Source: a virus (taxonomy: Duplodnaviria > Heunggongvirae > Uroviricota > Caudoviricetes). From it: a stretch of 10,052 nt of DNA. How positions within the stretch are numbered: the first letter of the stretch is position 1; every line of letters starts with the position of its first letter. Location of the stretch: the IMG/VR virus record IMGVR_UViG_2711768011_000003; one strand, written 5' to 3'. The translations under genes were made by a program, and so were the position numbers. Under the pieces are notes generated by a model. That model saw only the letters and a program-made list of their open reading frames with translations, was not told the DNA's origin and made no database searches. Below are positions 1-10,052 of this stretch, one piece after another.

Positions 1-22
1 ATCAAGAGCCTGTCCAATGTGC

Positions 23-59
23 ATAAAAAAATCCGGAAACAAGTGAGCGTTTCCGGATT
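23..59 (-). terminator. Rho-independent terminator immediately downstream of the portal gene
   Basis: Minus strand reads AATCCGGAAAC-GCTCACTT-GTTTCCGGATT followed by TTTTT: a perfect 11-bp stem, 8-nt loop and T-tract. The portal stop codon is at 92-94. Confidence 0.5.
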
Positions 60-91
60 CTTACACAGCCACTGGATCGGTCAACTGATCC

Positions 92-1248
92 TTAACTGAT
101 CGGCATTACACCACCGGGACGCGGATTCATATCTTCCAGGTCGCGGCAGTCATTGGAAGAGTAAATTCCCCAGTTGATCCCGGTGGCGTAGGCTTCAAAA
201 CGGGACTTCATATCCCCGCGCAGTAACGCCCCGGCGTTAAATTTGGCGTAATAAACGCCCTGCTTACTTTTTCGTACCAGTCCGGTGTTGATCCGCTGTT
301 CGATGCGGGTCAGATACGGCACCAGTGAATAGTTGATAAATCCCAGCCCCAGCTCTTCGATATTGTTGAAGGTGGCGCGATCGGTGTTCTGCACCATGTG
401 CAACGGCACCCGGAACAGACGACAGATTTCTTCCAGCTGAAACTTGCGGGTTTCCAGGAACTGACTGTCCTCGGCGTTCAGCGCCATCGACTTCCAGTCC
501 AGCCCCATTTCCAGAATCATCGGGCGGTGAGCATTGCCAAGCCCCGTGTGACACTCCTCAAAATCTTTCTTCAGACGCTCGTAAGCATCCGGCGTGAGCT
601 TTTGTTCCGTACGCAACACACCGGATGTCACCGCACCATTACTAAACAACCTGGCACCGTGCTCCTCGGTTGCCGCTGCCAGTGAAATGGCCTCACGCGC
701 ATACGCAATGGGATTCAGCCCGACAAGTCCATCCAGCGTCAGGGTGCGCACATGCCAGATTTCATTCTGGGTCAACACATCCACGGAACCATCCGGAAAC
801 GTCACCTGATAAACCGGCTGCCACTGGCTGTTCAGCTTCGGTTCCACACAGCCCGGATCTATCGGAAGAAGCTCCACCACTTCTCCCAGTGCCTTTACCT
901 TGTAGGCGTAAAAATTCCCCCGTAGACACAGGCAGACAATAACCAGCTCCCAGAATTCCTGCGGTGTCATGTAGCCATTAGGTTTTGCCGAAACCAACTT
1001 ATGCAGTCGTTCATCCACCGCCCGTGTTTTCAGGGTACCGCTGATTTTGTAGAGACTGCAGGGCAGCATACCAACAGACTCTGCCAGCACCCTGACGCAA
1101 GAATAGACCGCCGTCAGGCGCATGGCCCGCTGGCTACTGATCCGCTTTCCGGTATAGGTGTCGTATGACAGCCCGATAGCATCAGCAGTTCTGCTGGCGT
1201 GGTCACCGGCACATCGCTTTTTCGTTGAAATAATCCCGAAAAGAACAC
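92..1248 (-). CDS. Phage portal protein, HK97 family; 5' end unresolved (possible frameshift)
   Basis: The open frame 92-1339 (stop TAA at 92-94) translates to a protein with a portal-like conserved block (RAMRLTAVYSCVRVLAESVGMLP) in the usual position after the terminase large subunit. In this frame there is no ATG or GTG between the TTG at 1339 (no RBS, overlaps the upstream ORF) and the ATG at 1121-1123. A GTG at 1246-1248 with a GGAGG RBS lies in a different frame and stops at 1114-1116. The start given is that GTG and is provisional. Confidence 0.7.
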
Positions 1249-1430
1249 TATTTACCTCCGCCGACAGACTGCCGTGTACGGTCGAGATATCGCGCCACCA
1301 GCCACGACCAGAACAGGCACAGCGCCCCGGCAACAACAAAACCCGCCGGGGGATAAATCAGCCAGGCACCATACGCCAGCAAAAGCGCACCCAGCACGCC
1401 CACCAGAGGCGCGAGAATCAGCATGATCAT
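1248..1430 (-). CDS. Small hydrophobic (predicted 2-TM) membrane protein, function unknown
   Basis: ATG at 1428-1430 with a GAGGT RBS 4 nt upstream; 60 aa, strongly hydrophobic ([49 protein letters not shown]...). The stop TAG at 1248-1250 overlaps the GTG at 1246-1248 (TAGTG). It sits between the terminase large subunit and the portal gene. Confidence 0.5.
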
Positions 1431-1441
1431 AATTACCTCAG

Positions 1442-3175
1442 TTAAAGCGAGCGGATCCCGTAGGACTCAATGTGGTCAGACAGCGTGTCTTCTTTCTCGT
1501 ACAGCATGGCTCTGCCAACCGCCATAATCAGCGCAACTGCACCATCGATTTTGTTTTCCGCCTGCTCTTTGACGGGTTTCACCACATCATCGTTACCCGG
1601 CATGTTTTTGCCGACCACGTTGCCGATACACCAGGTCATGATGGGATTGCCGTCATGATGAAAACGTCCCGATTCAATCGCTGCTTCCAGCTCTTTCATC
1701 GGATCGGACATATTGGTGAAGTTCTGGACGATAGTGACGGGATTCAGGTCTTCATCAGCAAGGTCATGTGACAACCCGGTCGCCCCGAAGGGGTCGATGG
1801 GTGACTCACTGACCGGGCTGATTTTGTTCGCCGCTTTGGCCTCCTCGAGGATGTAGCGATAATCCACCTCCGCACCATCGGTAACGGTCAGAACGCCCAT
1901 TTCCACCCATTTCTGAAAGCGTTCGGCTGTCCGTCGATCTTCATTTTTCTCGACGCTGTACACCGTGTCATACGGTACCCAGAAACGCGGGGCCACACTG
2001 TAGTAATGCGTTTTACCGTCAATCTCGCGGGTATAAAGTCGCGCCATGCTGTTCATATCCAGCTTACGCGCCAGGTCAAAGGCCAGAATGCACGGCTGCC
2101 CCTCGAACTGCTCAAGGGTCAGTGATTTATCCTCGCAGCTCTGCCAGCTCACCAAGTTGAAATACGCCGAACGCGCCGACACCCAGATATTGAGGTGTTT
2201 TGTTTTAAAGACGTTTGCCAGACGGGCGTTATTTTTCGCACGCTGCTGCTGACTTAACAAAAATTCGCGATAAACCGACACGCCAATATTTGGATTGGCT
2301 TTTTCCAGCACCTGCGGGCCGGTCCAGTCGTCACCTTCATCAACGGTATAGATGATCCCGAACAGTTCATCGTTAGGCACCGAGCCGTTGAGCATCTCGA
2401 TGACTTCCCGCCGCTTGTCGTAGCACGGCCCCTCAATGTTGTACCCGGCGGTGGTGATGGCCCACATCAGTGGCTGACGTCGCGCCCCCATCCCGGTAAG
2501 CATTGTGGTATAAAGCGCATCGGTGGCATGCTCGTGATATTCATCAACCACGGCACAGTGGGGTGATGAACCATCACCTGGGTTGCCGATCAGCGGTTCA
2601 AACCGCGCGCCATCCTCCGGACGGTTCATGTTTGAGGCGTTAACCTCAATCCCGAACGCTTCCGTCAGCATGGGTGTGCGTTTACACATCAGTCGCGCCG
2701 GGCGAAAGACTTCCCACGCCTGTTTCTCTGTCGTGGCACCGGAATACACTTCCGCGCCAAACTCGTTATCACAGGCAAAACAATACAGGGCAACACCGGC
2801 AGAGATTGCTGATTTGCCGTTCTTACGGGGGATTTCGGTGTACACCTCCCGGAAGCGGCGCAACCGGGTGCCTTTATTGACCCAGCCAAACGCACAGCAG
2901 ATCACAAATAGCTGCCACGGCTCCAGCGTGATGGGCATCCGTTTGAATGCCCACTCCCCCTTGGTGTGCGGCAACAGCTGAATAAATTTCGCGGCCCGTT
3001 CAGCCAGGTCCTTGTCGAAGCGGTAACGAAACGACTTACTTTTTTCCGCCATCAGGTCATCAAGATGGCGCTGGCAGGCCTGAATCACAAACTGGCAGGC
3101 AACAATCTTTCCGCGCACGACATCCCGGGCATACTGATTTGCAGCATTTACGTTGGGGTAAGATTTCCGGCTCAT
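1442..3175 (-). CDS. Terminase large subunit
   Basis: 577-aa ORF with a Walker-A-like IPRKNGKS motif and overall terminase large subunit character. The ATG at 3173-3175 overlaps the small-subunit stop (ATGA). Gene order is small subunit, large subunit, portal. Confidence 0.9.
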
Positions 3176-3666
3176 GATTCGATAATTTTCAGAAACGGGT
3201 TAGTGGCTTTCTTCTGCCCCGCCAGGCCAATCAGACGCTGGCGGCTGCTGGGGTCGAGTCCGAGCATTGCCCCCGTGCTGCTCATCTCGGACTCCTGTTC
3301 TTTTTTGGCGGTCAGCTCCGGATTTTTGACCCTGCCGCCCATTGCACCGGTGATGGTGTTGCCCTGTATGGCAATATTTTTCACGGCACGTCGCCAGAAC
3401 TCATAGGCCACGCACCACCGCTCAAGTACCGCCAGGTCAGTCACGCACAGCAGGCCCTGACCGCAGAGTTCTTTGGTTGTCAGTTGCCACATGATCGTGG
3501 CGAGAGGGAGATCTTCTTCAGCGAACCACTCTGGTGGCTCAACACCTTTGATGGGCGTAAAAACAGGTTCATCTTTGTTCAGGGCTCGCTTGCCGGGGTT
3601 TCCGGCCAGCGCCTTGCGCGCCGTTGGCTTGGGGCGACGCCCGGAACGCCCCGCCGTTCCAGCCAT
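3172..3666 (-). CDS. Terminase small subunit (P27-family-like)
   Basis: ORF immediately upstream of and overlapping the large subunit. Basic N-terminus ([22 protein letters not shown]) typical of P27-type small subunits. Start taken as the ATG at 3664-3666 with an AGGAG RBS 8 nt upstream; the ORF-track start at 3675 is a GTG. Confidence 0.8.
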
Positions 3667-3703
3667 ATGCGGCACTCCTGGTTAAATTTCATTTTTCGCG
3701 GGT

Positions 3704-3765
3704 ATAAAAAAACGATGGGGCGGGCAGTCCGGAAGACGTCAGGTCACAGGGATTTGCCCCGCCCC
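3704..3765 (-). terminator. GC-rich inverted repeat with T-tract between HNH and the small terminase subunit; terminator-like, region of the probable cos site
   Basis: GGGGCGGGCAG (3717-3727) and TGCCCCGCCCC (3755-3765) form an imperfect inverted repeat around a 27-nt spacer containing GACGTC. On the minus strand the stem is followed 4 nt later by TTTTTTT (plus-strand A-run 3706-3712). Confidence 0.3.
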
Positions 3766-3787
3766 TCCCTACAAGTGAGAATAATTA

Positions 3788-4138
3788 TCACCGGATTCGT
3801 TCGCGCGCTGTTTTCGCTTTATGGCAGGGCCAGCACAGACTCTGCAGGTTGCTGTCTGCGTCTGTTCCGCCATGCGCTTTCGGGATGATGTGGTCGACGG
3901 TTTTCGCCTCGCTCACCACACCGACACGCAGACACAACTGACACAGACCTTTATCGCGCTTCAGAATACGGGCACGAATCACCGTCCATTTTGAGCCATA
4001 GCCACGCTGGTGGCGGCTCAGTCCGCGCTGGTGCTGCACCCAGCCTTCACCGCGATGTTTATCGCAGTAACCCGAACTGTCTGTGGTTGTACCTGCACAT
4101 CCACGCTTACGGCAGGCACGTGGGATTAGTGATGGCAT
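3788..4138 (-). CDS. HNH endonuclease (terminase-associated)
   Basis: 116 aa, Cys-rich, with an HNH motif (VDHIIPKAHGGTDADSNLQSLCWPCHKAK). ATG at 4136-4138 with a GAGGT RBS. Located directly upstream of the terminase genes, as in HK97-like packaging modules. Confidence 0.85.
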   Translation of the reverse strand: MPSLIPRACRKRGCAGTTTDSSGYCDKHRGEGWVQHQRGLSRHQRGYGSKWTVIRARILKRDKGLCQLCLRVGVVSEAKTVDHIIPKAHGGTDADSNLQSLCWPCHKAKTARERIR

Positions 4139-4180
4139 AAATACCTCATACCCTGCGAAATGTTTACCACGATAAAAAGG

Positions 4181-4645
4181 CTACTTAATGCACTGAGTGC
4201 GGATATACTCCTGTGCCCCTTCCAGTTGCATCTGCATCGTCATCAGCCGCTCTCTGAGGGTGAAATAATCCCGTTCAGCGGTGTCTGCCAGTCGGGGGCT
4301 GGTTGCATTATCCACGCCGGAGGCGGTGGTGGCTTCACGCACTGACTGACAGACTGCTTTGATGTGCAACCGACGACGACCAGCGGCAACATCAGCGCGC
4401 AGAGTTTCATTTTCAGCTTTCGCATCAGCTAACTCCTTCGTGTATTTAGCATCGAGTGCATTAACATCACGCTGTCTCTGCTGCATGTCAGTAATGGTTG
4501 CGTTCGCCAGCTTCAGTTCTCTTGCGTTTTTGTCGCGCTGCTCTTTGTAGGTAATGGCGTTATCACGGTAATGATTAACAGCCCATGACAGGCAGACGAT
4601 GATGCAGATAACCAGAGCGGAGATAATCGCGGTGACTCTGCTCAT
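4181..4645 (-). CDS. Rz: Spanin inner-membrane subunit Rz (i-spanin)
   Basis: The translation from [29 protein letters not shown] onward closely matches lambda Rz as I recall it. The ATG at 4643-4645 overlaps the endolysin stop (ATGA). The ORF-track start at 4657 adds 4 residues upstream and is probably not used. Confidence 0.9.
4243..4425 (-). CDS. Rz1: Spanin outer-membrane lipoprotein Rz1 (o-spanin), embedded in Rz in another frame
   Basis: 60 aa with a lipobox (LVVVGC) and a proline-rich stretch ([29 protein letters not shown]), very similar to lambda Rz1. ATG at 4423-4425. Fully nested inside Rz. Confidence 0.85.
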
Positions 4646-5139
4646 TGCTGCCCCCACAAACAGACTTCACGCTCAATCTCACGACGGGTCATCAGCCCTT
4701 TCCATTGCTTACCGCCAGCATATGTCCAGCGACGTAGCTGGTCACATGCGCCTTTGATATCGCCCTGGTTTATTTTGCGAAGAAGCGTCGATGTTCTGAA
4801 ATTGCCAGCGCCCACGTTGTAAACGAACGAGTAAAGAGCGCCGCGCGTTGTTTCCGGTATATCGACTTTGATGTACGGGTTAATTTGTCTGGCGACAGTG
4901 GCAAGGTCTTTATTCAGGAGGGCTTTGCATTCTGCTTCGGTATACGTTTTACCGAGCATGATGTCTTTTCCGGTGTGTCCGTGACATACAGTCCATACAC
5001 CAATGATATCTTTGTATGGTATGTAGCTGACACCTTCCAGACCATCGTTACCACCTGGGCCAGTGATTAACACAGATGCTATAGCAACAGCCCCACCACC
5101 AATAGCAGCTGCAACAGCCTTGCGTAATGATGGCGACAT
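4642..5139 (-). CDS. R: SAR endolysin (phage-21 R / RrrD-like lysozyme)
   Basis: 165 aa with an N-terminal Gly/Ala-rich signal-anchor-release segment ([20 protein letters not shown]) followed by a lysozyme domain ([25 protein letters not shown]...). ATG at 5137-5139 overlaps the holin stop. Confidence 0.9.
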
Positions 5140-5318
5140 TATTCACCTCTCGCAGCCTTACGCTTGTCTTCTCTTATTTTGAAATACAGATTTGTCAGAT
5201 AAGTCAGAAGCCCCAGAAGCAGACTTCCCAGCACACCAATCGCAGCCCACTGTGATGGACTGACCTGATCCAACCACTGCAAAAACCAGTAGCCGGCACT
5301 GCCGGCGGAGGTGCCGTA
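5139..5318 (-). CDS. S: Pinholin, S21-like; 5' end truncated by the assembly gap
   Basis: The readable 59 codons ([59 protein letters not shown], stop TAA at 5139-5141) match the phage 21 pinholin as I recall it. About 9 N-terminal codons fall inside the N-run. Confidence 0.8.
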
Positions 5319-5856
5319 NNNNNNNNNNNNNNNNNNNNNNNNNNNNNNNNNNNNNNNNNNNNNNNNNNNNNNNNNNNNNNNNNNNNNNNNNNNNNNNNNN
5401 NNNNNNNNNNNNNNNNNNNNNNNNNNNNNNNNNNNNNNNNNNNNNNNNNNNNNNNNNNNNNNNNNNNNNNNNNNNNNNNNNNNNNNNNNNNNNNNNNNNN
5501 NNNNNNNNNNNNNNNNNNNNNNNNNNNNNNNNNNNNNNNNNNNNNNNNNNNNNNNNNNNNNNNNNNNNNNNNNNNNNNNNNNNNNNNNNNNNNNNNNNNN
5601 NNNNNNNNNNNNNNNNNNNNNNNNNNNNNNNNNNNNNNNNNNNNNNNNNNNNNNNNNNNNNNNNNNNNNNNNNNNNNNNNNNNNNNNNNNNNNNNNNNNN
5701 NNNNNNNNNNNNNNNNNNNNNNNNNNNNNNNNNNNNNNNNNNNNNNNNNNNNNNNNNNNNNNNNNNNNNNNNNNNNNNNNNNNNNNNNNNNNNNNNNNNN
5801 NNNNNNNNNNNNNNNNNNNNNNNNNNNNNNNNNNNNNNNNNNNNNNNNNNNNNNNN
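5319..5856. other. Assembly gap (run of 538 N)
   Basis: Contiguous N characters. The ORF-track entries crossing it are poly-X artefacts. Confidence 0.99.
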
Positions 5857-5919
5857 GAGTCAGACATTCCCACACAATATTGTGTCAGTGCAAATAACAA
5901 CCTTCGTCTCAAATCTCGC

Positions 5920-5994
<75 letters not shown>

Positions 5995-5997
5995 ATA

Positions 5998-6073
<76 letters not shown>

Positions 6074-6075
6074 GC

Positions 6076-6152
6076 TGGCCCACCACCGAGGACTCGAACC
6101 TCGCACCGTCAACTTAGAAGGTTGATGCTCTATCCGGATGAGCTAGTGGTGG
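6076..6152 (-). tRNA. tRNA-Arg (anticodon UCU)
   Basis: CCACCACTAGCTCATCCGGATAGAGCATCAACCTTCTAAGTTGACGGTGCGAGGTTCGAGTCCTCGGTGGTGGGCCA. Perfect 7-bp acceptor stem with an unusual C1:G72 pair, D-stem GCTC/GAGC, anticodon loop CTTCTAA, T-loop TTCGAGT, CCA. Confidence 0.8.
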
Positions 6153-6153
6153 T

Positions 6154-6230
6154 TGGTGGCCCTTGCTGGACTTGAACCAGCGACCTGGCGATTATGAGTC
6201 GCTCGCTCTGACCAACTGAGCTAAAGGGCC
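6154..6230 (-). tRNA. tRNA with CAU anticodon; probably tRNA-Ile2 (lysidine), which software may call tRNA-Met
   Basis: GGCCCTTTAGCTCAGTTGGTCAGAGCGAGCGACTCATAATCGCCAGGTCGCTGGTTCAAGTCCAGCAAGGGCCACCA. Acceptor stem GGCCCTT/AAGGGCC, anticodon loop CTCATAA, A73, CCA. Strong resemblance to E. coli ileX/ileY-type tRNA as I recall it. Confidence 0.8.
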
Positions 6231-6239
6231 GGAGGCAGA

Positions 6240-6268
6240 ATAATAACCATATGTCATCACATCTGCAA
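6240..6268 (-). promoter_or_regulatory. Candidate sigma70 promoter for the tRNA array
   Basis: Minus strand: TTGCAG (-35, 6263-6268), a 17-nt spacer, TATTAT (-10, 6240-6245), then 9 nt to the first tRNA 5' end at 6230. Confidence 0.35.
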
Positions 6269-6318
6269 ACTCATCTGACCACCAGCACGTTTAACGTCCT
6301 GTGCCGTTTTTCAGGTAT

Positions 6319-6344
6319 AAAAAAACCCGCTCATCGGCGGGTTT
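6319..6344 (-). terminator. Rho-independent terminator downstream of the ORF6N-domain gene
   Basis: Minus strand: AAACCCGC-CGATGA-GCGGGTTT followed by a T-run of 7 in total. It lies about 75 nt after the stop at 6420-6422. Confidence 0.5.
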
Positions 6345-6419
6345 AAGCTGTGTGGCGTAGTAACCACTCTTAACAGGATATTCAACTTTTTACGATCGTA
6401 AAGTTTTCGGAAAAAATTT

Positions 6420-6983
6420 TTAAAACCGCATCAACCGCTCCACCAGTTGCTCTTTACGGGCAACGATCCACCCGTGTTGCTCCAGATAAAATTTAAACCG
6501 TTCCAGAGTACATACCATCGCATCGGCGGGTACCTTTTCCGTGAACTCAACCTGACCGTGTTTATCGAAGTGGCTCAGTAATGCGCATCCATCATTTTCG
6601 ATAGATGTGTTTTGTGCCGCTGGTGGCTGTTTCTGGTTGAAATAACAGTCTTCCAGTTTTTCGAACACTTCCCACGCCTGATCGGTTTCGAGCATTTTGG
6701 CGTGACGGGCTGCGCCACGTTCTGTCCAGAGGATGAGGGAGCGAACGTTACGGGCAATTTTCACAGAAACTCTTAAAGAGTTTTCGTTCTTCAACTCTCG
6801 TAACGCATCACCTTCTATCAGGAAAAAATGTTTACCTTCTATAAACCGTTCTTTGTTTCGATTGAAATTGTTTGTCAAACGCTGGCGCTCTGTTCCGTAC
6901 AAATCAGCCAGCAGCTCTGTTGTCATGACAGGAAGATGGTTATGCGTAAGTGACGGGAGTTTTTCAATAGACGTGCGATTCAT
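6420..6983 (-). CDS. ORF6N-domain protein (antirepressor-like DNA-binding family); cargo gene between Q and the lysis cassette
   Basis: The N-terminal part (TTELLADLYGTERQRLTNNFNRNKERFIEGKHFFLIEGDALRELK) fits the ORF6N-domain pattern as I remember it; the C-terminal half is unassigned. Start taken as the ATG at 6981-6983 with an AAGGA RBS 7 nt upstream; the ATG at 6987-6989 is an alternative. The ORF-track extension to 7181 starts with GTG and looks non-coding. Confidence 0.6.
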   Translation of the reverse strand: MNRTSIEKLPSLTHNHLPVMTTELLADLYGTERQRLTNNFNRNKERFIEGKHFFLIEGDALRELKNENSLRVSVKIARNVRSLILWTERGAARHAKMLETDQAWEVFEKLEDCYFNQKQPPAAQNTSIENDGCALLSHFDKHGQVEFTEKVPADAMVCTLERFKFYLEQHGWIVARKEQLVERLMRF

Positions 6984-7189
6984 AGACATGTCCTTTCGAA
7001 TATTTTGATTTACCCCTTTTGAGAGGGTGACCGGGCGCTCAAAACCGTCGAAAGTCGGCGGGCGTATTTCCATTGCTGGTATTGTATTAGCCGCACACCC
7101 GGTCATAAACCAAGAATTCTGGACACAAAAAAACCACATGGCTATCGGGTGTGGATACCGCTTTCGAGGTGTTTTGAGCACCGCGGGGA

Positions 7190-7218
7190 AATGTAAACTG
7201 CAAACCTGAAACTGTCAA
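7190..7218 (-). promoter_or_regulatory. Candidate sigma70 promoter upstream of the ORF6N-domain gene
   Basis: Minus strand: consensus TTGACA (7213-7218), a 17-nt spacer, TACATT (7190-7195). This would give a leader of about 200 nt. Confidence 0.25.
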
Positions 7219-7342
7219 CACCGTCAGGTTCCAATCATCGGGTGGTGAGACGCACAGGGTTGGAACTACCGGGAAACCGACCGGCGAGCTTTTCAGCTCC
7301 CCCATGCGCCCCACCATAATTCAGATGTGCGCGTGCATACGA

Positions 7343-7368
7343 CAATAAAAAACACGCTCGCGGCGTGT
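7343..7368 (-). terminator. tR'-like intrinsic terminator downstream of the late promoter
   Basis: Minus strand: ACACGC-CGCGA-GCGTGT followed by TTTTTTATT. It lies about 80 nt downstream of the predicted PR' start site. Confidence 0.5.
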
Positions 7369-7429
7369 GTCTGTCGCGGTCTCTATCCGGGGTTCCAATC
7401 CCGACGCCAGATTTTGCTGGCGCGTGAGG

Positions 7430-7459
7430 AATATAGCCCCGGACAATGTGTCTGGTCAA
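7430..7459 (-). promoter_or_regulatory. PR'-like late promoter (with presumptive qut region) immediately after Q
   Basis: Minus strand: TTGACC (-35, 7454-7459), an 18-nt spacer, TATATT (-10, 7430-7435). It begins 5 nt after the Q stop at 7464-7466, as in lambdoid late control regions. Confidence 0.45.
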
Positions 7460-7463
7460 GCAC

Positions 7464-7850
7464 CTACATAATTCGTTCTACGTATCTGTCCATCTCCAGC
7501 CGGATATCAAGCATCATCAACATGCCATCAATAACCCCTTCCGCTTTCTGCAGGCGCTTGCCAATACAGGTATCCGAACACCCATGTTTCCGTGCCAGAC
7601 TCATAAAAGTCATTCCACCTACGTAATAATCCACCAGCAAATCGTGCAAATCCTGATTTTTCTTGTTCAACCGGGCCATACAGCCACAAATTATCATTGC
7701 ATCATCATCAGAACACTGAGGGCGTGATTTCACTTTCGACGGAATTAACCCTTTAAAACCAGCAGCGATCGACGCCCAGGATACATCTTCATGAGTGTTT
7801 GCAGCCCAAGCCCCCCACCGTTCCATAACCTGCTGAATATCACGCGCCAT
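7464..7850 (-). CDS. Q: Late-gene antitermination protein Q (phage 21/82-type, QuuD-like)
   Basis: The translation from [61 protein letters not shown] onward closely resembles E. coli prophage Q-like antiterminators as I recall them. ATG at 7848-7850 with an AGGTGA RBS; stop TAG at 7464-7466. It overlaps the RusA 3' end by 11 nt. Confidence 0.85.
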
Positions 7851-8211
7851 CGTTATCACCTGTGATTTCATAAATCTTCACGCCCAGTCGCCCACCAGGA
7901 ACGAGCTGACCGCGCACAATATTGATTTCATCAAACTGCTCGTCGTCTATGAGTAGTCCGGCATGCGTCAGCGCATCCAGTGGTGCTTTCAGGATATTGT
8001 CCAGGTCACGACGGCGCTTATCCGGTGGCTCTGCAATAATCTTTATCGCCAGCCTTCCGGACAGGTTTAATTTCAGCCGCTGCTGGCGAACAATTAGCGT
8101 CACATCACGGCGATAACGCTCACCAACTTTTGATACAAAATATGTGCTGCCACGACGTCGCCAGTAAGTATTCACCGTCGGCGGATAAGGTAAAATAAAC
8201 TCATGGCGCAT
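7840..8211 (-). CDS. rusA: Holliday-junction resolvase RusA
   Basis: 123 aa with the RusA signature ([31 protein letters not shown]). The ATG at 8209-8211 overlaps the upstream stop (ATGA). Confidence 0.85.
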
Positions 8212-8468
8212 CAGCGCAGCACCTCCTGCACCATTTTTTCAAACTTTCCAACTTTGGTTTCCAGCTCTGCCACACAATCAACGAGCTCATCCACCGCTTT
8301 TTGTGCGCGATGTTTCGCCTGCATCAGTTCCCTGAGCGCTGGCACCATATCCCGACGAATGGCATCTTTTGTTACACCTGTTTTTTCCAGTTGTTCCGCC
8401 TGTCGCAACATTTCCTGCGCGTGTTTACGCAATTGTTCAGAGGTAAAAGTCATTGTCTGGTTGTTCAA
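8211..8468 (-). CDS. Small charged alpha-helical protein, function unknown
   Basis: Open frame between the helicase and rusA with no recognisable family. Possible starts are the TTG at 8466-8468 (GGAG RBS 8 nt upstream, overlaps the helicase stop as TTGA) or the ATG at 8451-8453 (no RBS). Stop TGA at 8211-8213. Confidence 0.45.
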   Translation of the reverse strand: MNNQTMTFTSEQLRKHAQEMLRQAEQLEKTGVTKDAIRRDMVPALRELMQAKHRAQKAVDELVDCVAELETKVGKFEKMVQEVLR

Positions 8469-9856
8469 AAGAAACGCTCCATCTTACTGCTGTCGGTACG
8501 TGTATTGCTGTATCTGCGCGGCTGGGGCTGCCGCATTGGGGTGGAAAGAACCTGTGCGCTTTCCTGGTCCACAGGCAGAAAATGTCCGTTATAAAAACGC
8601 CGGTAAATCGTCCCCAGAGAACCGTTACGTTGTTTCGTGATATTAATTTCTGCTATGCCTGTAGCCTGTGTATCCGGGTTGTACACTTCATCCCTGTAAA
8701 GCATCAGAATGATGTCTGCATCCGCCTCTATTTCTCCGGAATTTTTCAGGTCTGAGTTCATGGGACGTTTATTGGGTCTGGACTCCACACCGCGGGAGAG
8801 CTGGCTCAGCGCAATCAACGGAAAACCACCGGATTTTGCCAGGCCTTTAAGCCCCTTTGAGATTTCACCCACGGCAAGGTCATGACGCCCCGTGGTTCGG
8901 GTTTTTATCAGCCCGAGATAATCAACCACCACCAGCGCCGTTTCCGGATGTTTAATCAGATGGTGTTTCGTTGTTGCGCATATCTCATCAATGGTCAGGT
9001 TCGCCTGGTCCACCATCCAGATATTGCGCCCGGTCATCCGCCCCACCCCTTGTGAGAAACGCGCCCAGTCTTCATCTTCAAAGTGAGCCACAGATTTCAG
9101 GCGTGATACTGGCATCCCTCCAGCCGCAGACACCATACGTTCACCAATCTGGATGTTCGCCATCTCCATGGTGAACAGAAGCACACCATGCCCCTGCTCA
9201 GTCACCTTGTCGATGATGTCCAGCGCAAGTTCGGTTTTCCCCATCGAAGGACGGGCGGCAATGAATACCAGGTCTCCGGGCTCCATACCGCCTGTTTTTG
9301 CGTCCAGTTCATCAATACCGGTCATCAACGTCCTGGATTTCTCCAGCCCCTGATTCCGGCATTCAACACGCTCAACCACTTCCGGAAGCACATCATCAAT
9401 ATGTACCGGCTGAATGACGCCCTTTCCTGTCGACAGTGTGACCATCATGTTCTGCGCATCCTTCAGGGCATCTTCAGCTGCTTCACAGGTATGCGCATCA
9501 CGTAATTTCTGCAGCGCCTCATTCAGTGTTTTTTCTGCATCGCGCAGTGCGGCATTGCGCCGCAACGCTGCAACATAGTGCTCCAGTGAAGACTTCACCC
9601 AGGTTTTACGCCCGGTATCAGTAATCACCGGGGCAAGTTCCGGCATCTCATTACACAACAGCACGGGGTCAATCACTCCTGAAACACGGGCCTGTCTGCA
9701 GATGCCTGTGTAGATATCCCGATACGCTCGTACAGAAAAAATGTCCGCCGGTAGTGTGATCAGAATATCCATCACTTCATGATCTGCCCCACGCAGAAAG
9801 AATGCGCCAATGACAGCGCCTTCCAGGTCATCATTACGCCAGACTGGTGTTGTCAT
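8465..9856 (-). CDS. Replicative DNA helicase, DnaB family (phage-encoded)
   Basis: 463 aa with a DnaB-type RecA-like domain and Walker A motif (ARPSMGKTELALDI). ATG at 9854-9856 with a GAGGTG RBS. The ORF-track extension to the GTG at 9997 translates to low-complexity, non-protein-like sequence. Confidence 0.85.
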   Translation of the reverse strand: MTTPVWRNDDLEGAVIGAFFLRGADHEVMDILITLPADIFSVRAYRDIYTGICRQARVSGVIDPVLLCNEMPELAPVITDTGRKTWVKSSLEHYVAALRRNAALRDAEKTLNEALQKLRDAHTCEAAEDALKDAQNMMVTLSTGKGVIQPVHIDDVLPEVVERVECRNQGLEKSRTLMTGIDELDAKTGGMEPGDLVFIAARPSMGKTELALDIIDKVTEQGHGVLLFTMEMANIQIGERMVSAAGGMPVSRLKSVAHFEDEDWARFSQGVGRMTGRNIWMVDQANLTIDEICATTKHHLIKHPETALVVVDYLGLIKTRTTGRHDLAVGEISKGLKGLAKSGGFPLIALSQLSRGVESRPNKRPMNSDLKNSGEIEADADIILMLYRDEVYNPDTQATGIAEINITKQRNGSLGTIYRRFYNGHFLPVDQESAQVLSTPMRQPQPRRYSNTRTDSSKMERFF

Positions 9857-10052
9857 GCAGCCACACCTCTGATACAAGAACGGTAGCTGGGCCAGTTGAA
9901 CGACAACCAGTTGCGCCCCCCGTCTGTGATCCTGTCGGCAATGCGGGGGCTGATGAACGCTGGATTTGCCCCTATATTTCCAGACACCTGTTATCACTTA
10001 ACCCATTACTGGCTTGCTGCCGTAGATATTCCCGTGGCGAGCGATAACCCAG

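What the first reader, a model, noticed from the sequence alone, without database searches (positions are those of the whole stretch)
5319..5856. Assembly gap removes the holin start and hides the sequence next to the cargo slot
The 538 N bases cover about 9 codons of the pinholin 5' end plus its dual-start/RBS region, and everything between the tRNA array and the holin. N-runs are usually placeholders of uncertain true length, so anything from nothing to a multi-kb insertion (toxin, defence gene or IS element) could be missing. The readable flank at 5857-5919 has no coding signal.
Basis: seen in the sequence. Interest (0 to 1): 0.45.

Follow-up and report, generated by a model that had tools for sequence, protein, structure and literature searches.

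The report
Scaffold gap hiding ordinary holin leader
The 538 N's are a real gap in a prophage lysis region, but three otherwise identical public sequences show it hides about 653 bases: the first 12 codons of an ordinary pinholin gene and a non-coding leader, with no toxin, defence gene or insertion element.

Summary
The N run is confirmed: window 5319-5856 is 538 N. It lies between an S21-type holin, which runs into the gap, and a four-tRNA array. Everything here is on the minus strand.

The gap can be closed in silico. The finished Shigella sonnei Ss046 chromosome (CP000038.1) and two IMG/VR contigs match both flanks at 100% over 9-9.5 kb. All three carry the same 653 bp between the flanks. 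None of 22 related loci has a 538-base spacing, so 538 is most likely a scaffolder's size estimate.

The 653 bp contain:
- holin codons 1-12 (MYQMEKISTGIA, dual start at M1/M4) and the ribosome-binding site;
- about 617 nt with no supported ORF.

That non-coding stretch is rich in RNA signals:
- a strand-specific hairpin with a stem of about 29 bp, just after tRNA-Gly;
- two terminator-like hairpins on the late-transcript strand;
- a promoter-plus-terminator unit about 95 nt long pointing the opposite way (convergent with late transcription), which looks like an sRNA gene.

ISEc20 sits 10 nt upstream of the holin ATG in nine related loci, but not in the three identical sequences.

Verdict: the gap is a technical artefact and its content is ordinary. 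Interest is low. The RNA elements are a side lead.

The parts
5319..5856 (.). Run of 538 N (scaffold gap). The true content is inferred to be 653 bp.
   Evidence: Searches show the run. At 100% flank identity, L020 4170-4822, L031 8768-9420 and L144 7326-7978 (S. sonnei Ss046, CP000038.1 2934302-2934954) are identical 653-bp fills. Of 22 loci with both anchors, none has a 538 spacing. An exact 538-spacing scan of viral contigs found nothing.
5139..5318 (-). Visible 3' part of the S21-type (class II, pinholin) holin gene: codons 13-71 plus the stop.
   Evidence: Translation. The completed protein from L020 4787-5002 hits PF04971 at E=1.5e-35 and is 92% identical to phage 21 S21-71.
5319..5354 (-). 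Hidden holin codons 1-12 (MYQMEKISTGIA), with Met1 and Met4 as the dual start. Position is counted from the left edge of the gap. The G-rich ribosome-binding site (GGGGGGCGGGAT) lies directly upstream.
   Evidence: L020 4787-4822 and the sequence upstream of it. In phage 21 the equivalent starts are annotated S21-71 antiholin and S21-68 holin.
5385..5421 (-). Hidden terminator-like hairpin on the late-transcript strand, AGGCCATCAGAGTTTTGCTGATGGCCT followed by TTTTTTCTTT. The stem ends about 40 nt upstream of the holin ATG. Approximate position, counted from the left edge of the gap.
   Evidence: L020 4720-4746 plus the T run. The same site is in L001. It is conserved in the 85-88% relatives.
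5461..5595 (+). Hidden sRNA-like unit pointing against late transcription. It has a TTGACA-17-TAAAAA promoter-like site, then about 95 nt ending in a 12-bp GC stem with an inner GAAA-capped hairpin and a U6 tail. A second GC-rich hairpin follows. Approximate position, counted from the left edge of the gap.
   Evidence: L020 4675-4546, read on the minus strand of L020. The fold gives -34.2 kcal/mol, z=-3.4, with 0 of 200 shuffles as good. The promoter hexamers, 5' region and hairpin are conserved in all variants. No Rfam match. No similarity to PasA-D or to AgvB/AsxR/EcOnc03/27/28.
5632..5661 (-). Hidden weaker terminator-like hairpin on the late strand (AACTGCCTTGGCTGGCGGTT followed by TTTTGT). 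It would end the tRNA transcription unit. Approximate position, counted from the right edge of the gap.
   Evidence: L020 4365-4384. The widespread 85% homology begins just after it, at position 237 of the 653 bp counted from the tRNA side.
5717..5805 (-). Hidden long RNA hairpin (29-bp main stem plus a 6-bp apical helix) in the trailer after tRNA-Gly. Approximate position, counted from the right edge of the gap.
   Evidence: L020 about 4221-4309. The late strand folds at -40 to -48 kcal/mol against -19 to -31 for the reverse complement. RNAalifold predicts 35 pairs. 96.9% of cells are paired, with 6 double-change pairs against 2.3+-1.2 in shuffles (0 of 500 as high); slid controls give 39-55%. 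The 20-mer from its 3' arm gave 99 matching stretches in IMG/VR.
5857..5919 (-). Visible 63-nt 3' trailer of tRNA-Gly. Non-coding; contains the 14-nt palindrome ACACAATATTGTGT.
5920..6230 (-). tRNA array: Met/Ile(CAT), Arg(TCT), Thr(TGT), Gly(TCC), in the order of transcription.
   Evidence: ARAGORN. RefSeq annotation of the 100%-matching stretch in L001 names the CAT tRNA as tRNA-Ile.
4642..5139 (-). Endolysin (phage lysozyme family). The Rz spanin gene follows at 4181-4657.
   Evidence: PF00959 E=2e-45 and PF03245 E=3e-52.

Best explanation
The N run is a scaffolding gap in a draft assembly of a lambdoid prophage. The prophage is identical to one in Shigella sonnei Ss046. The length 538 is a size estimate; the real stretch is most likely 653 bp.

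Read in the direction of late transcription (window minus strand), the hidden stretch contains, in order:
1. The rest of the tRNA-Gly trailer, including a long hairpin with a 29-bp main stem.
2. A weak terminator that would close the tRNA unit.
3. A leader of about 390 nt that carries, on the opposite strand, a small promoter-to-terminator unit that looks like an sRNA gene.
4. A strong terminator-like hairpin about 40 nt before the holin.
5. The ribosome-binding site and the first 12 codons (Met1/Met4 dual start) of an S21-type pinholin.

Inferred mechanism, not shown: in the lysogen, the two late-strand terminators keep transcription from the ORF6N gene and the tRNA genes out of the lysis genes. 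After induction, polymerase modified by the Q antiterminator reads through them. The missing piece holds no cargo gene.

The gap probably arose because this stretch is hairpin-rich and occurs in more than one prophage per genome. Other draft contigs also end inside it.
For: Gap closure:
- L020 and L031 match the window at 100% on both flanks, as does S. sonnei Ss046 over 4784 + 4196 bases. All three have the identical 653 bp.
- Nineteen of 22 loci with both anchors have 650-654 bp.
- E. coli FDAARGOS_944 has 652 bp with no annotated gene.

No coding:
- No Pfam or PHROGs hit for any ORF of 30 aa or more.
- The gene calls on the Ss046 locus list nothing between the ORF6N gene and the holin.
- The G run at L020 4519-4540 varies in length among near-identical copies, and the longest ORF is 98 aa in L020 but 85 aa in L001.

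Holin: PF04971; 92% identical to S21-71, with Met1 and Met4 kept.

Terminator enrichment: 7 terminator-like sites against 1.3+-1.2 in shuffles.

Assembly difficulty:
- IMG/VR contigs L008, L015 and L016 start or end at positions 313, 344 and 427 of the 653 bp.
- The stretch is present twice in each of two complete genomes.
Against: - The source record itself was not found in any collection, so the closure rests on identical relatives and not on the strain sequenced.
- 538 differs from 653 by 115 bases.
- The gap edges do not coincide with any recombination junction seen in relatives.
- The regulatory roles of the terminators, the hairpin and the convergent unit are inferred from sequence only.
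Confidence: 0.85

Rival explanations
1. The source strain carries an insertion in the gap, for example ISEc20 or another insertion element, or a cargo gene. The 538 N would then be an arbitrary placeholder.
For: ISEc20 (1449 bp, IS110 family) is inserted 10 nt upstream of the holin ATG in 9 related loci. L045 has IS3-family fragments in the same stretch. Multi-copy insertion elements are a classic cause of contig breaks.
Against: - All three sequences that are 100% identical on both flanks lack any insertion.
- The ISEc20-bearing loci I compared with the window's lysis genes either match them at only about 95% (L017) or do not match them at all.
- A break caused by ISEc20 would leave the holin start visible, because the element sits upstream of the ATG. 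Here the contig stops 36 nt inside the gene.
- A simple insertion would leave the two contig ends adjacent in reference coordinates, not 653 bp apart.
- The estimate of 538 is close to 653 and far from about 2100.
Confidence: 0.07
2. The N run replaces real bases one for one, by hard-masking or low-coverage masking. The strain would then truly have 538 bp here, a 115-bp deletion variant of the leader.
For: The length is not a round number. The tool notes say that some public stretches are masked as N. Shorter variants of the slot exist: about 260 bp in CFSAN029787 and about 459 bp in other genomes.
Against: No locus with a 538 spacing was found in any collection searched. The shorter variants belong to different tRNA and leader types. 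The window is otherwise 100% identical to sequences with 653 bp.
Confidence: 0.06

Closest known systems
Phage 21 late region (Q21, pR', tR', tRNAs, S21 R21 Rz21; GenBank OL657228)
   Same: Same order of parts: Q antiterminator, short terminated pR' transcript, tRNA genes, then a dual-start class II pinholin, an endolysin annotated SAR-type in phage 21, and a spanin. The holin is 92% identical, and the nucleotide identity over the lysis genes is about 93%.
   Different: Phage 21 has only about 120 nt between its last tRNA and S21. Here there are 63 + 617 nt, and an extra ORF6N-domain gene sits between tR' and the tRNAs. The N-terminus is MYQM, not MKSM, so the Lys2 of the S21-71 antiholin is missing.
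Convergent anti-sRNAs of lambdoid prophages (AgvB, AsxR, EcOnc03; Tree et al. 2014, PMC4104026) and the Pas sRNAs (PMC8550237; bioRxiv 10.64898/2026.05.13.724894)
   Same: Same genomic niche: downstream of pR' and upstream of the holin. The hidden leader has a short unit pointing against late transcription that ends in a Rho-independent terminator, as described for those sRNAs.
   Different: No sequence similarity to the PasA-D loci of E2348/69 or to the AgvB1, AsxR, EcOnc03, EcOnc27 and EcOnc28 loci of Sakai. No Rfam hit to AgvB or AsxR at E<=1. The predicted length is about 95 nt against 51-60 nt. Expression has not been shown.
Ordinary scaffold gaps in draft bacterial assemblies
   Same: An N run of estimated length between two contigs, in a region that is repeated within genomes and rich in hairpins. 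Other drafts of the same prophage also break here.
   Different: Nothing unusual.

Membership tests
S21-type class II holin (pinholin), Pfam PF04971 | Sequence membership in the Phage_holin_2_1 family | tested here: met
   The completed protein from the 100% twin L020 scores 121 bits, E=1.5e-35, against a cut-off of 26. It is 92% identical to phage 21 S21-71. The 59 codons visible in the window are identical to the twin.
S21-type class II holin (pinholin), Pfam PF04971 | Dual-start motif (Met1 ... Met4) giving an antiholin and a holin | tested here: met
   MYQMEKIS in the inferred sequence has Met1 and Met4 at the positions annotated S21-71 and S21-68 in phage 21. The positively charged Lys2 of S21-71 is replaced by Tyr, so antiholin behaviour is untested.
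S21-type class II holin (pinholin), Pfam PF04971 | Paired with a SAR endolysin directly downstream | tested here: inconclusive
   The lysozyme-family gene overlaps the holin stop (PF00959), and the homologue in phage 21 is annotated as a SAR endolysin. I did not analyse the N-terminal signal-anchor-release sequence itself.
Assembly (scaffold) gap | Flanks are collinear with an uninterrupted sequence in finished genomes | tested here: met
   S. sonnei Ss046 matches both flanks at 100% with 653 bp between them.
Assembly (scaffold) gap | The source record documents the gap as scaffolder-introduced | not testable with these tools
   The source contig was not found in genome contigs, viral contigs or metagenome contigs.
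Prophage convergent anti-sRNA (AgvB/AsxR family, Rfam RF02702/RF02703) | Match to the family covariance model, that is, to the conserved 3' region of about 42 nt | tested here: not met
   No AgvB or AsxR hit at E<=1 on L001 5400-7000. No blastn similarity to the Sakai loci.
Prophage convergent anti-sRNA (AgvB/AsxR family, Rfam RF02702/RF02703) | Located downstream of pR', pointing against late transcription, with a Rho-independent terminator | tested here: met
   The promoter-like site and terminator lie on the window plus strand, inside the leader upstream of the holin.
Prophage convergent anti-sRNA (AgvB/AsxR family, Rfam RF02702/RF02703) | Expressed, Hfq-bound small transcript | not testable with these tools
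   No transcriptome data were available for a strain carrying this leader.

The most novel reading that the evidence does not exclude
The hidden leader, and not any cargo gene, carries undescribed functional RNAs.

(a) A strand-specific hairpin with a 29-bp main stem follows the tRNA array in many lambdoid prophages. It could be an RNase III processing or stabilising element that separates the tRNA precursor from the lysis mRNA.

(b) A convergent sRNA of about 95 nt sits just upstream of the pinholin. It is unrelated to AgvB, AsxR or the Pas sRNAs. At about 85% identity it persists even in prophage remnants next to iss on ColV plasmids, where the holin and endolysin have been lost.
Probability: 0.3. 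Interest if true: 0.35.

Novelty: not a real feature. Interest (0 to 1): 0.1.

Why it matters
It matters little. The result removes a false lead: no toxin, defence gene or insertion element is concealed next to the lysis genes of this prophage, and the holin gene is almost certainly intact.

In practice, the gap can be filled from CP000038.1 2934302-2934954.

The side lead is modest. The non-coding stretch between phage tRNA genes and S21-type holins holds conserved RNA structures that no database names. ISEc20 also inserts repeatedly at one site, 10 nt ahead of the holin start.

Tried and rejected
Looking for the source record: an exact-pattern scan of genome contigs, viral contigs and metagenome contigs with the 34-mer next to the gap, plus a scan for an exact 538-base spacing. 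The source record with N's was not found.

Pas sRNAs: the paper places pasA, pasC and pasD1 beside a holin/lysozyme operon, so I tested all four E2348/69 Pas loci. Only the holin start matched the leader.

AgvB, AsxR, EcOnc03, EcOnc27, EcOnc28: no similarity to the Sakai Sp5, Sp9 and Sp10 loci and no Rfam hit. The Sakai coordinates came from NC_002695.1 and were applied to NC_002695.2. The whole 6-kb regions were compared, so a small shift does not matter.

IpeX / nmpC 3'UTR of the K-12 prophage DLP12: no similarity.

GcvB mimicry: L020 4187-4204 matches the GcvB R1 seed at 17 of 18 positions (UGUGAUGUUGU.UUGUUG). It is not conserved in the 70-75% homologues. Duplex energy against shuffles was unremarkable (-38.4 against a mean of -32.7, sd 3.2; the best shuffle reached -41.9). 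I treat it as probably chance.

Small proteins in the gap: six ORFs of 37-98 aa had no Pfam or PHROGs hit.

Covariation for the convergent sRNA unit: too little variation. There is one G-to-A change and one A-to-G change in the outer stem, and they point in opposite directions.

Full report
**Observation.** The window has a single N run, 5319-5856, of exactly 538 bases. All genes around it are on the minus strand. In the order of transcription they are (Pfam assignments, tRNAs):
- DnaB-like helicase, 8465-9997
- Q antiterminator, 7464-7871 (PF06530)
- an ORF6N-domain gene, 6420-7181
- four tRNAs, 6230-5920: Met/Ile-CAT, Arg-TCT, Thr-TGT, Gly-TCC
- the gap
- holin remainder, 5318-5139
- lysozyme-family endolysin, 5139-4642
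- Rz spanin, 4657-4181
- HNH endonuclease, small and large terminase subunits, portal protein

The visible holin part is 59 codons plus the stop. The family member is 71 codons long, so 12 codons are hidden, not about 9. The ORFs that the ORF listing reports across the gap come from translating N's.

**Closing the gap in silico.** Megablast against complete E. coli genomes found the two flanks joined in several genomes. The best is FDAARGOS_944, at 98-100% identity, with 652 bp between the flanks and no annotated gene there.

An exact 34-mer from the right edge of the gap retrieved 29 IMG/VR loci. Two of them match the window at 100% on both sides and contain no N's:
- L020 covers window 15-5318 and 5857-10025.
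- L031 covers window 92-5318 and 5857-10052.

Both have 653 bp in between.

Looking up the ORF6N protein by exact sequence led to the finished chromosome of Shigella sonnei Ss046 (CP000038.1). It is 100% identical to window 535-5318 and 5857-10052, and it has the same 653 bp at record positions 2934302-2934954.

Across all loci that hold both 25-nt anchors, the spacing is:
- 650-654 in 19 of 22
- 1809 in L045
- 2106 in L017
- one spurious pairing across two prophages

A direct scan of viral contigs for a 538-base spacing found nothing. The source record itself was not found in the genome, viral or metagenome collections.

So the N run is best read as a scaffolder's size estimate for a stretch that is really about 653 bp.

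**What the 653 bp contain** (L020 coordinates, plus strand = direction of late transcription).

- *Holin start.* The ATG is at 4787 and a second ATG at 4796, giving MYQMEKISTGIA. A G-rich ribosome-binding site precedes it. The completed protein hits PF04971 (E=1.5e-35) and is 92% identical to phage 21 S21-71. In phage 21, Met1 and Met4 are annotated as the antiholin and holin starts.
- *No supported ORF elsewhere.* The six longest ORFs (37-98 aa, both strands) have no Pfam or PHROGs match. The gene calls on the Ss046 locus list nothing there. The longest ORF is 98 aa in L020 but 85 aa in L001. A G run inside it varies in length among near-identical copies.
- *Many hairpin-plus-T-run sites.* There are 7, against 1.3±1.2 in shuffles. 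On the late strand, a weak one lies at 4365-4384. A strong one lies at 4720-4746 (10 pairs, then TTTTTTCTTT), about 40 nt before the ATG.
- *A small unit on the opposite strand.* It has TTGACA (4675-4670), a 17-nt spacer and TAAAAA (4652-4647). About 95 nt follow, ending in a 12-bp GC stem that encloses a GAAA-capped hairpin and then a U6 tail (4611-4546). A second GC-rich hairpin comes next (4540-4519). It folds at -34.2 kcal/mol, z = -3.4. The inner stem uses G·U pairs that exist only on this strand; the reverse strand folds less well (z = -2.2). The -10 hexamer lacks the usual final T, which is a weakness.
- *A long hairpin next to tRNA-Gly* (about 4221-4309).

**The long hairpin.** A 20-mer from its 3' arm gave 99 matching stretches in IMG/VR, and 30 distinct variants of the hairpin region were recovered from them. 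More distant copies, at 70-75% identity, follow tRNA-Gly in phages SerU-LTIIb and vB_EcoS-683R6.
- RNAalifold on ten representatives predicts 35 pairs.
- 96.9% of cells are paired. Six pairs change on both sides, against 2.3±1.2 in shuffles (0 of 500 as high). Slid controls give 39-55% paired.
- The late strand folds at -40 to -48 kcal/mol. The reverse complement folds at -19 to -31, because about seven pairs are G·U.

So this is an RNA-level structure on the late transcript. Two caveats apply. The structure was derived from the same alignment. The variants were also collected with a pattern in the 3' arm, which limits variation there.

A nearly perfect stem of this length is what RNase III cleaves. 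That role is my inference from general knowledge of RNase III substrates and was not tested.

**Mosaic structure and spread.** The full 617-nt non-coding part is rare in complete E. coli genomes: 9 of 5426 have at least 80% coverage. Positions 237-586 (counted from the tRNA side) recur at about 85% identity in about 1500 records. The homology starts just after the weak terminator.

This leader fragment, which includes the convergent unit, survives in two kinds of remnant where the holin and endolysin are gone:
- next to iss and Rz fragments on ColV plasmids such as pAPEC-O1-ColBM;
- in an ST131 island.

In phage 21 itself the last tRNA is only about 120 nt from S21. This lineage therefore carries about 560 extra non-coding nucleotides.

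**Known sRNAs in this niche.** Tree et al. 2014 describe convergent anti-sRNAs downstream of pR'. The Pas papers place pasA, pasC and pasD1 next to a holin/lysozyme operon.

I fetched the E2348/69 Pas loci and the Sakai AgvB1, EcOnc03/28 and AsxR/EcOnc27 loci. Neither set shares sequence with this leader beyond the holin start. Rfam gives no hit other than tRNAs and generic hairpin matches. The convergent unit resembles that class in position and build, but it is not a member of those families. Its expression is unproven.

**Insertion elements.** The 2106-bp spacing in L017 comes from a 1449-bp element encoding a 398-aa IS110-family transposase (PF01548 + PF02371). RefSeq annotates identical copies as ISEc20.

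The same element sits at the same site, 10 nt upstream of the holin ATG, in nine related loci. L045 has IS3-family fragments and a partial duplication.

It is unlikely for this window, for four reasons:
- The three identical sequences lack any insertion.
- The ISEc20-bearing loci I compared with the window's lysis genes either match them at only about 95% (L017) or do not match them at all.
- A break caused by ISEc20 would leave the holin start visible.
- 538 is close to 653 and far from about 2100.

**Why a gap here?** This part is inference. Three IMG/VR contigs start or end inside the stretch, at positions 313, 344 and 427, close to the GC-rich hairpins; two of them (L008, L015) match the window at 100% on the tRNA side. 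The stretch also occurs twice in each of two complete genomes, one Shigella flexneri and one E. coli. Repeats combined with strong hairpins are a sufficient cause.

**Mechanism proposed.** A pR'-like promoter (7459-7430) and a tR'-like terminator (7368-7352) follow Q. The ORF6N gene has its own promoter-like site (7218-7190) and terminator (6344-6323). The tRNA array has a weak promoter-like site (6269-6240).

The hidden weak terminator would end the tRNA unit. The strong one would shield the lysis genes from any read-through in the lysogen. Q-modified polymerase would pass both after induction. These steps follow from the established lambda and phage 21 model and from consensus scans. None was shown here.

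**Verdict.** The finding is a technical artefact whose content can be recovered and is ordinary. Novelty: not a real feature. Interest 0.1. The most novel reading still open is that the hidden leader holds undescribed functional RNAs (probability about 0.3, modest interest).

Noticed in passing
L017 2267-3715; also L004, L006, L013, L018, L022, L023, L030, L048: ISEc20 (IS110 family, 1449 bp) is inserted at the same site, 10 nt upstream of the S21-type holin ATG, in nine related prophage loci. This cuts the lysis genes off from the late promoter. It could reflect site-specific targeting or spread of one allele.
   Followed up: partly
L020 4221-4309 (inside the window's gap, about 5717-5805 counted from the right edge): A strand-specific RNA hairpin with a 29-bp main stem follows tRNA-Gly in many lambdoid prophages. 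It has no Rfam family. 96.9% of cells are paired, and the late strand folds 17-25 kcal/mol better than the reverse complement.
   Followed up: yes
L041 4001-4344 (pAPEC-O1-ColBM) and L042 4001-4348 (ST131 chromosome): About 350 nt of the leader upstream of the holin, including the convergent sRNA-like unit, persist at about 85% identity next to iss and Rz fragments. They are found on ColV plasmids and in ExPEC islands where the holin and endolysin are deleted. About 1500 E. coli records carry this fragment, and almost none annotate anything under it.
   Followed up: partly
window 6323-7218: The ORF6N-domain gene (6420-7181, minus strand) sits between the Q/tR' region and the tRNA array. It has its own promoter-like site (7218-7190) and terminator (6344-6323). 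It is the actual extra gene in this late region.
   Followed up: partly
window 7352-7459: A pR'-like promoter (TTGACC-18-TATATT) lies directly after Q, with a terminator about 60-80 nt downstream. This is the layout that produces a short 6S/StxS-type RNA in other lambdoid phages.
   Followed up: no
L020 4187-4204 (inside the gap): The late strand reads UGUGAUGUUGUUUUGUUG, a 17-of-18 match to the R1 seed of the host sRNA GcvB. It is not conserved in more distant homologues and is probably chance.
   Followed up: yes
window 6154-6230: ARAGORN calls the CAT-anticodon tRNA Met. RefSeq annotation of the identical gene in E. coli calls it tRNA-Ile (lysidine-modified type), as for ileZ in Stx phages.
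   Followed up: no
L020 4519-4540: The hairpin CCTCCTCCCCGGAGGGGGG has a G run of 4, 5 or 6 in otherwise near-identical copies. This is either real slippage or sequencing error. Draft contigs tend to end near it.
   Followed up: partly
window 1-10052: Outside the gap, window 535-10052 is 100% identical to Shigella sonnei Ss046 (CP000038.1, about 2.93 Mb), the part covered by the retrieved locus. No complete E. coli genome in the collection covers more than about 56% of the window.
   Followed up: yes
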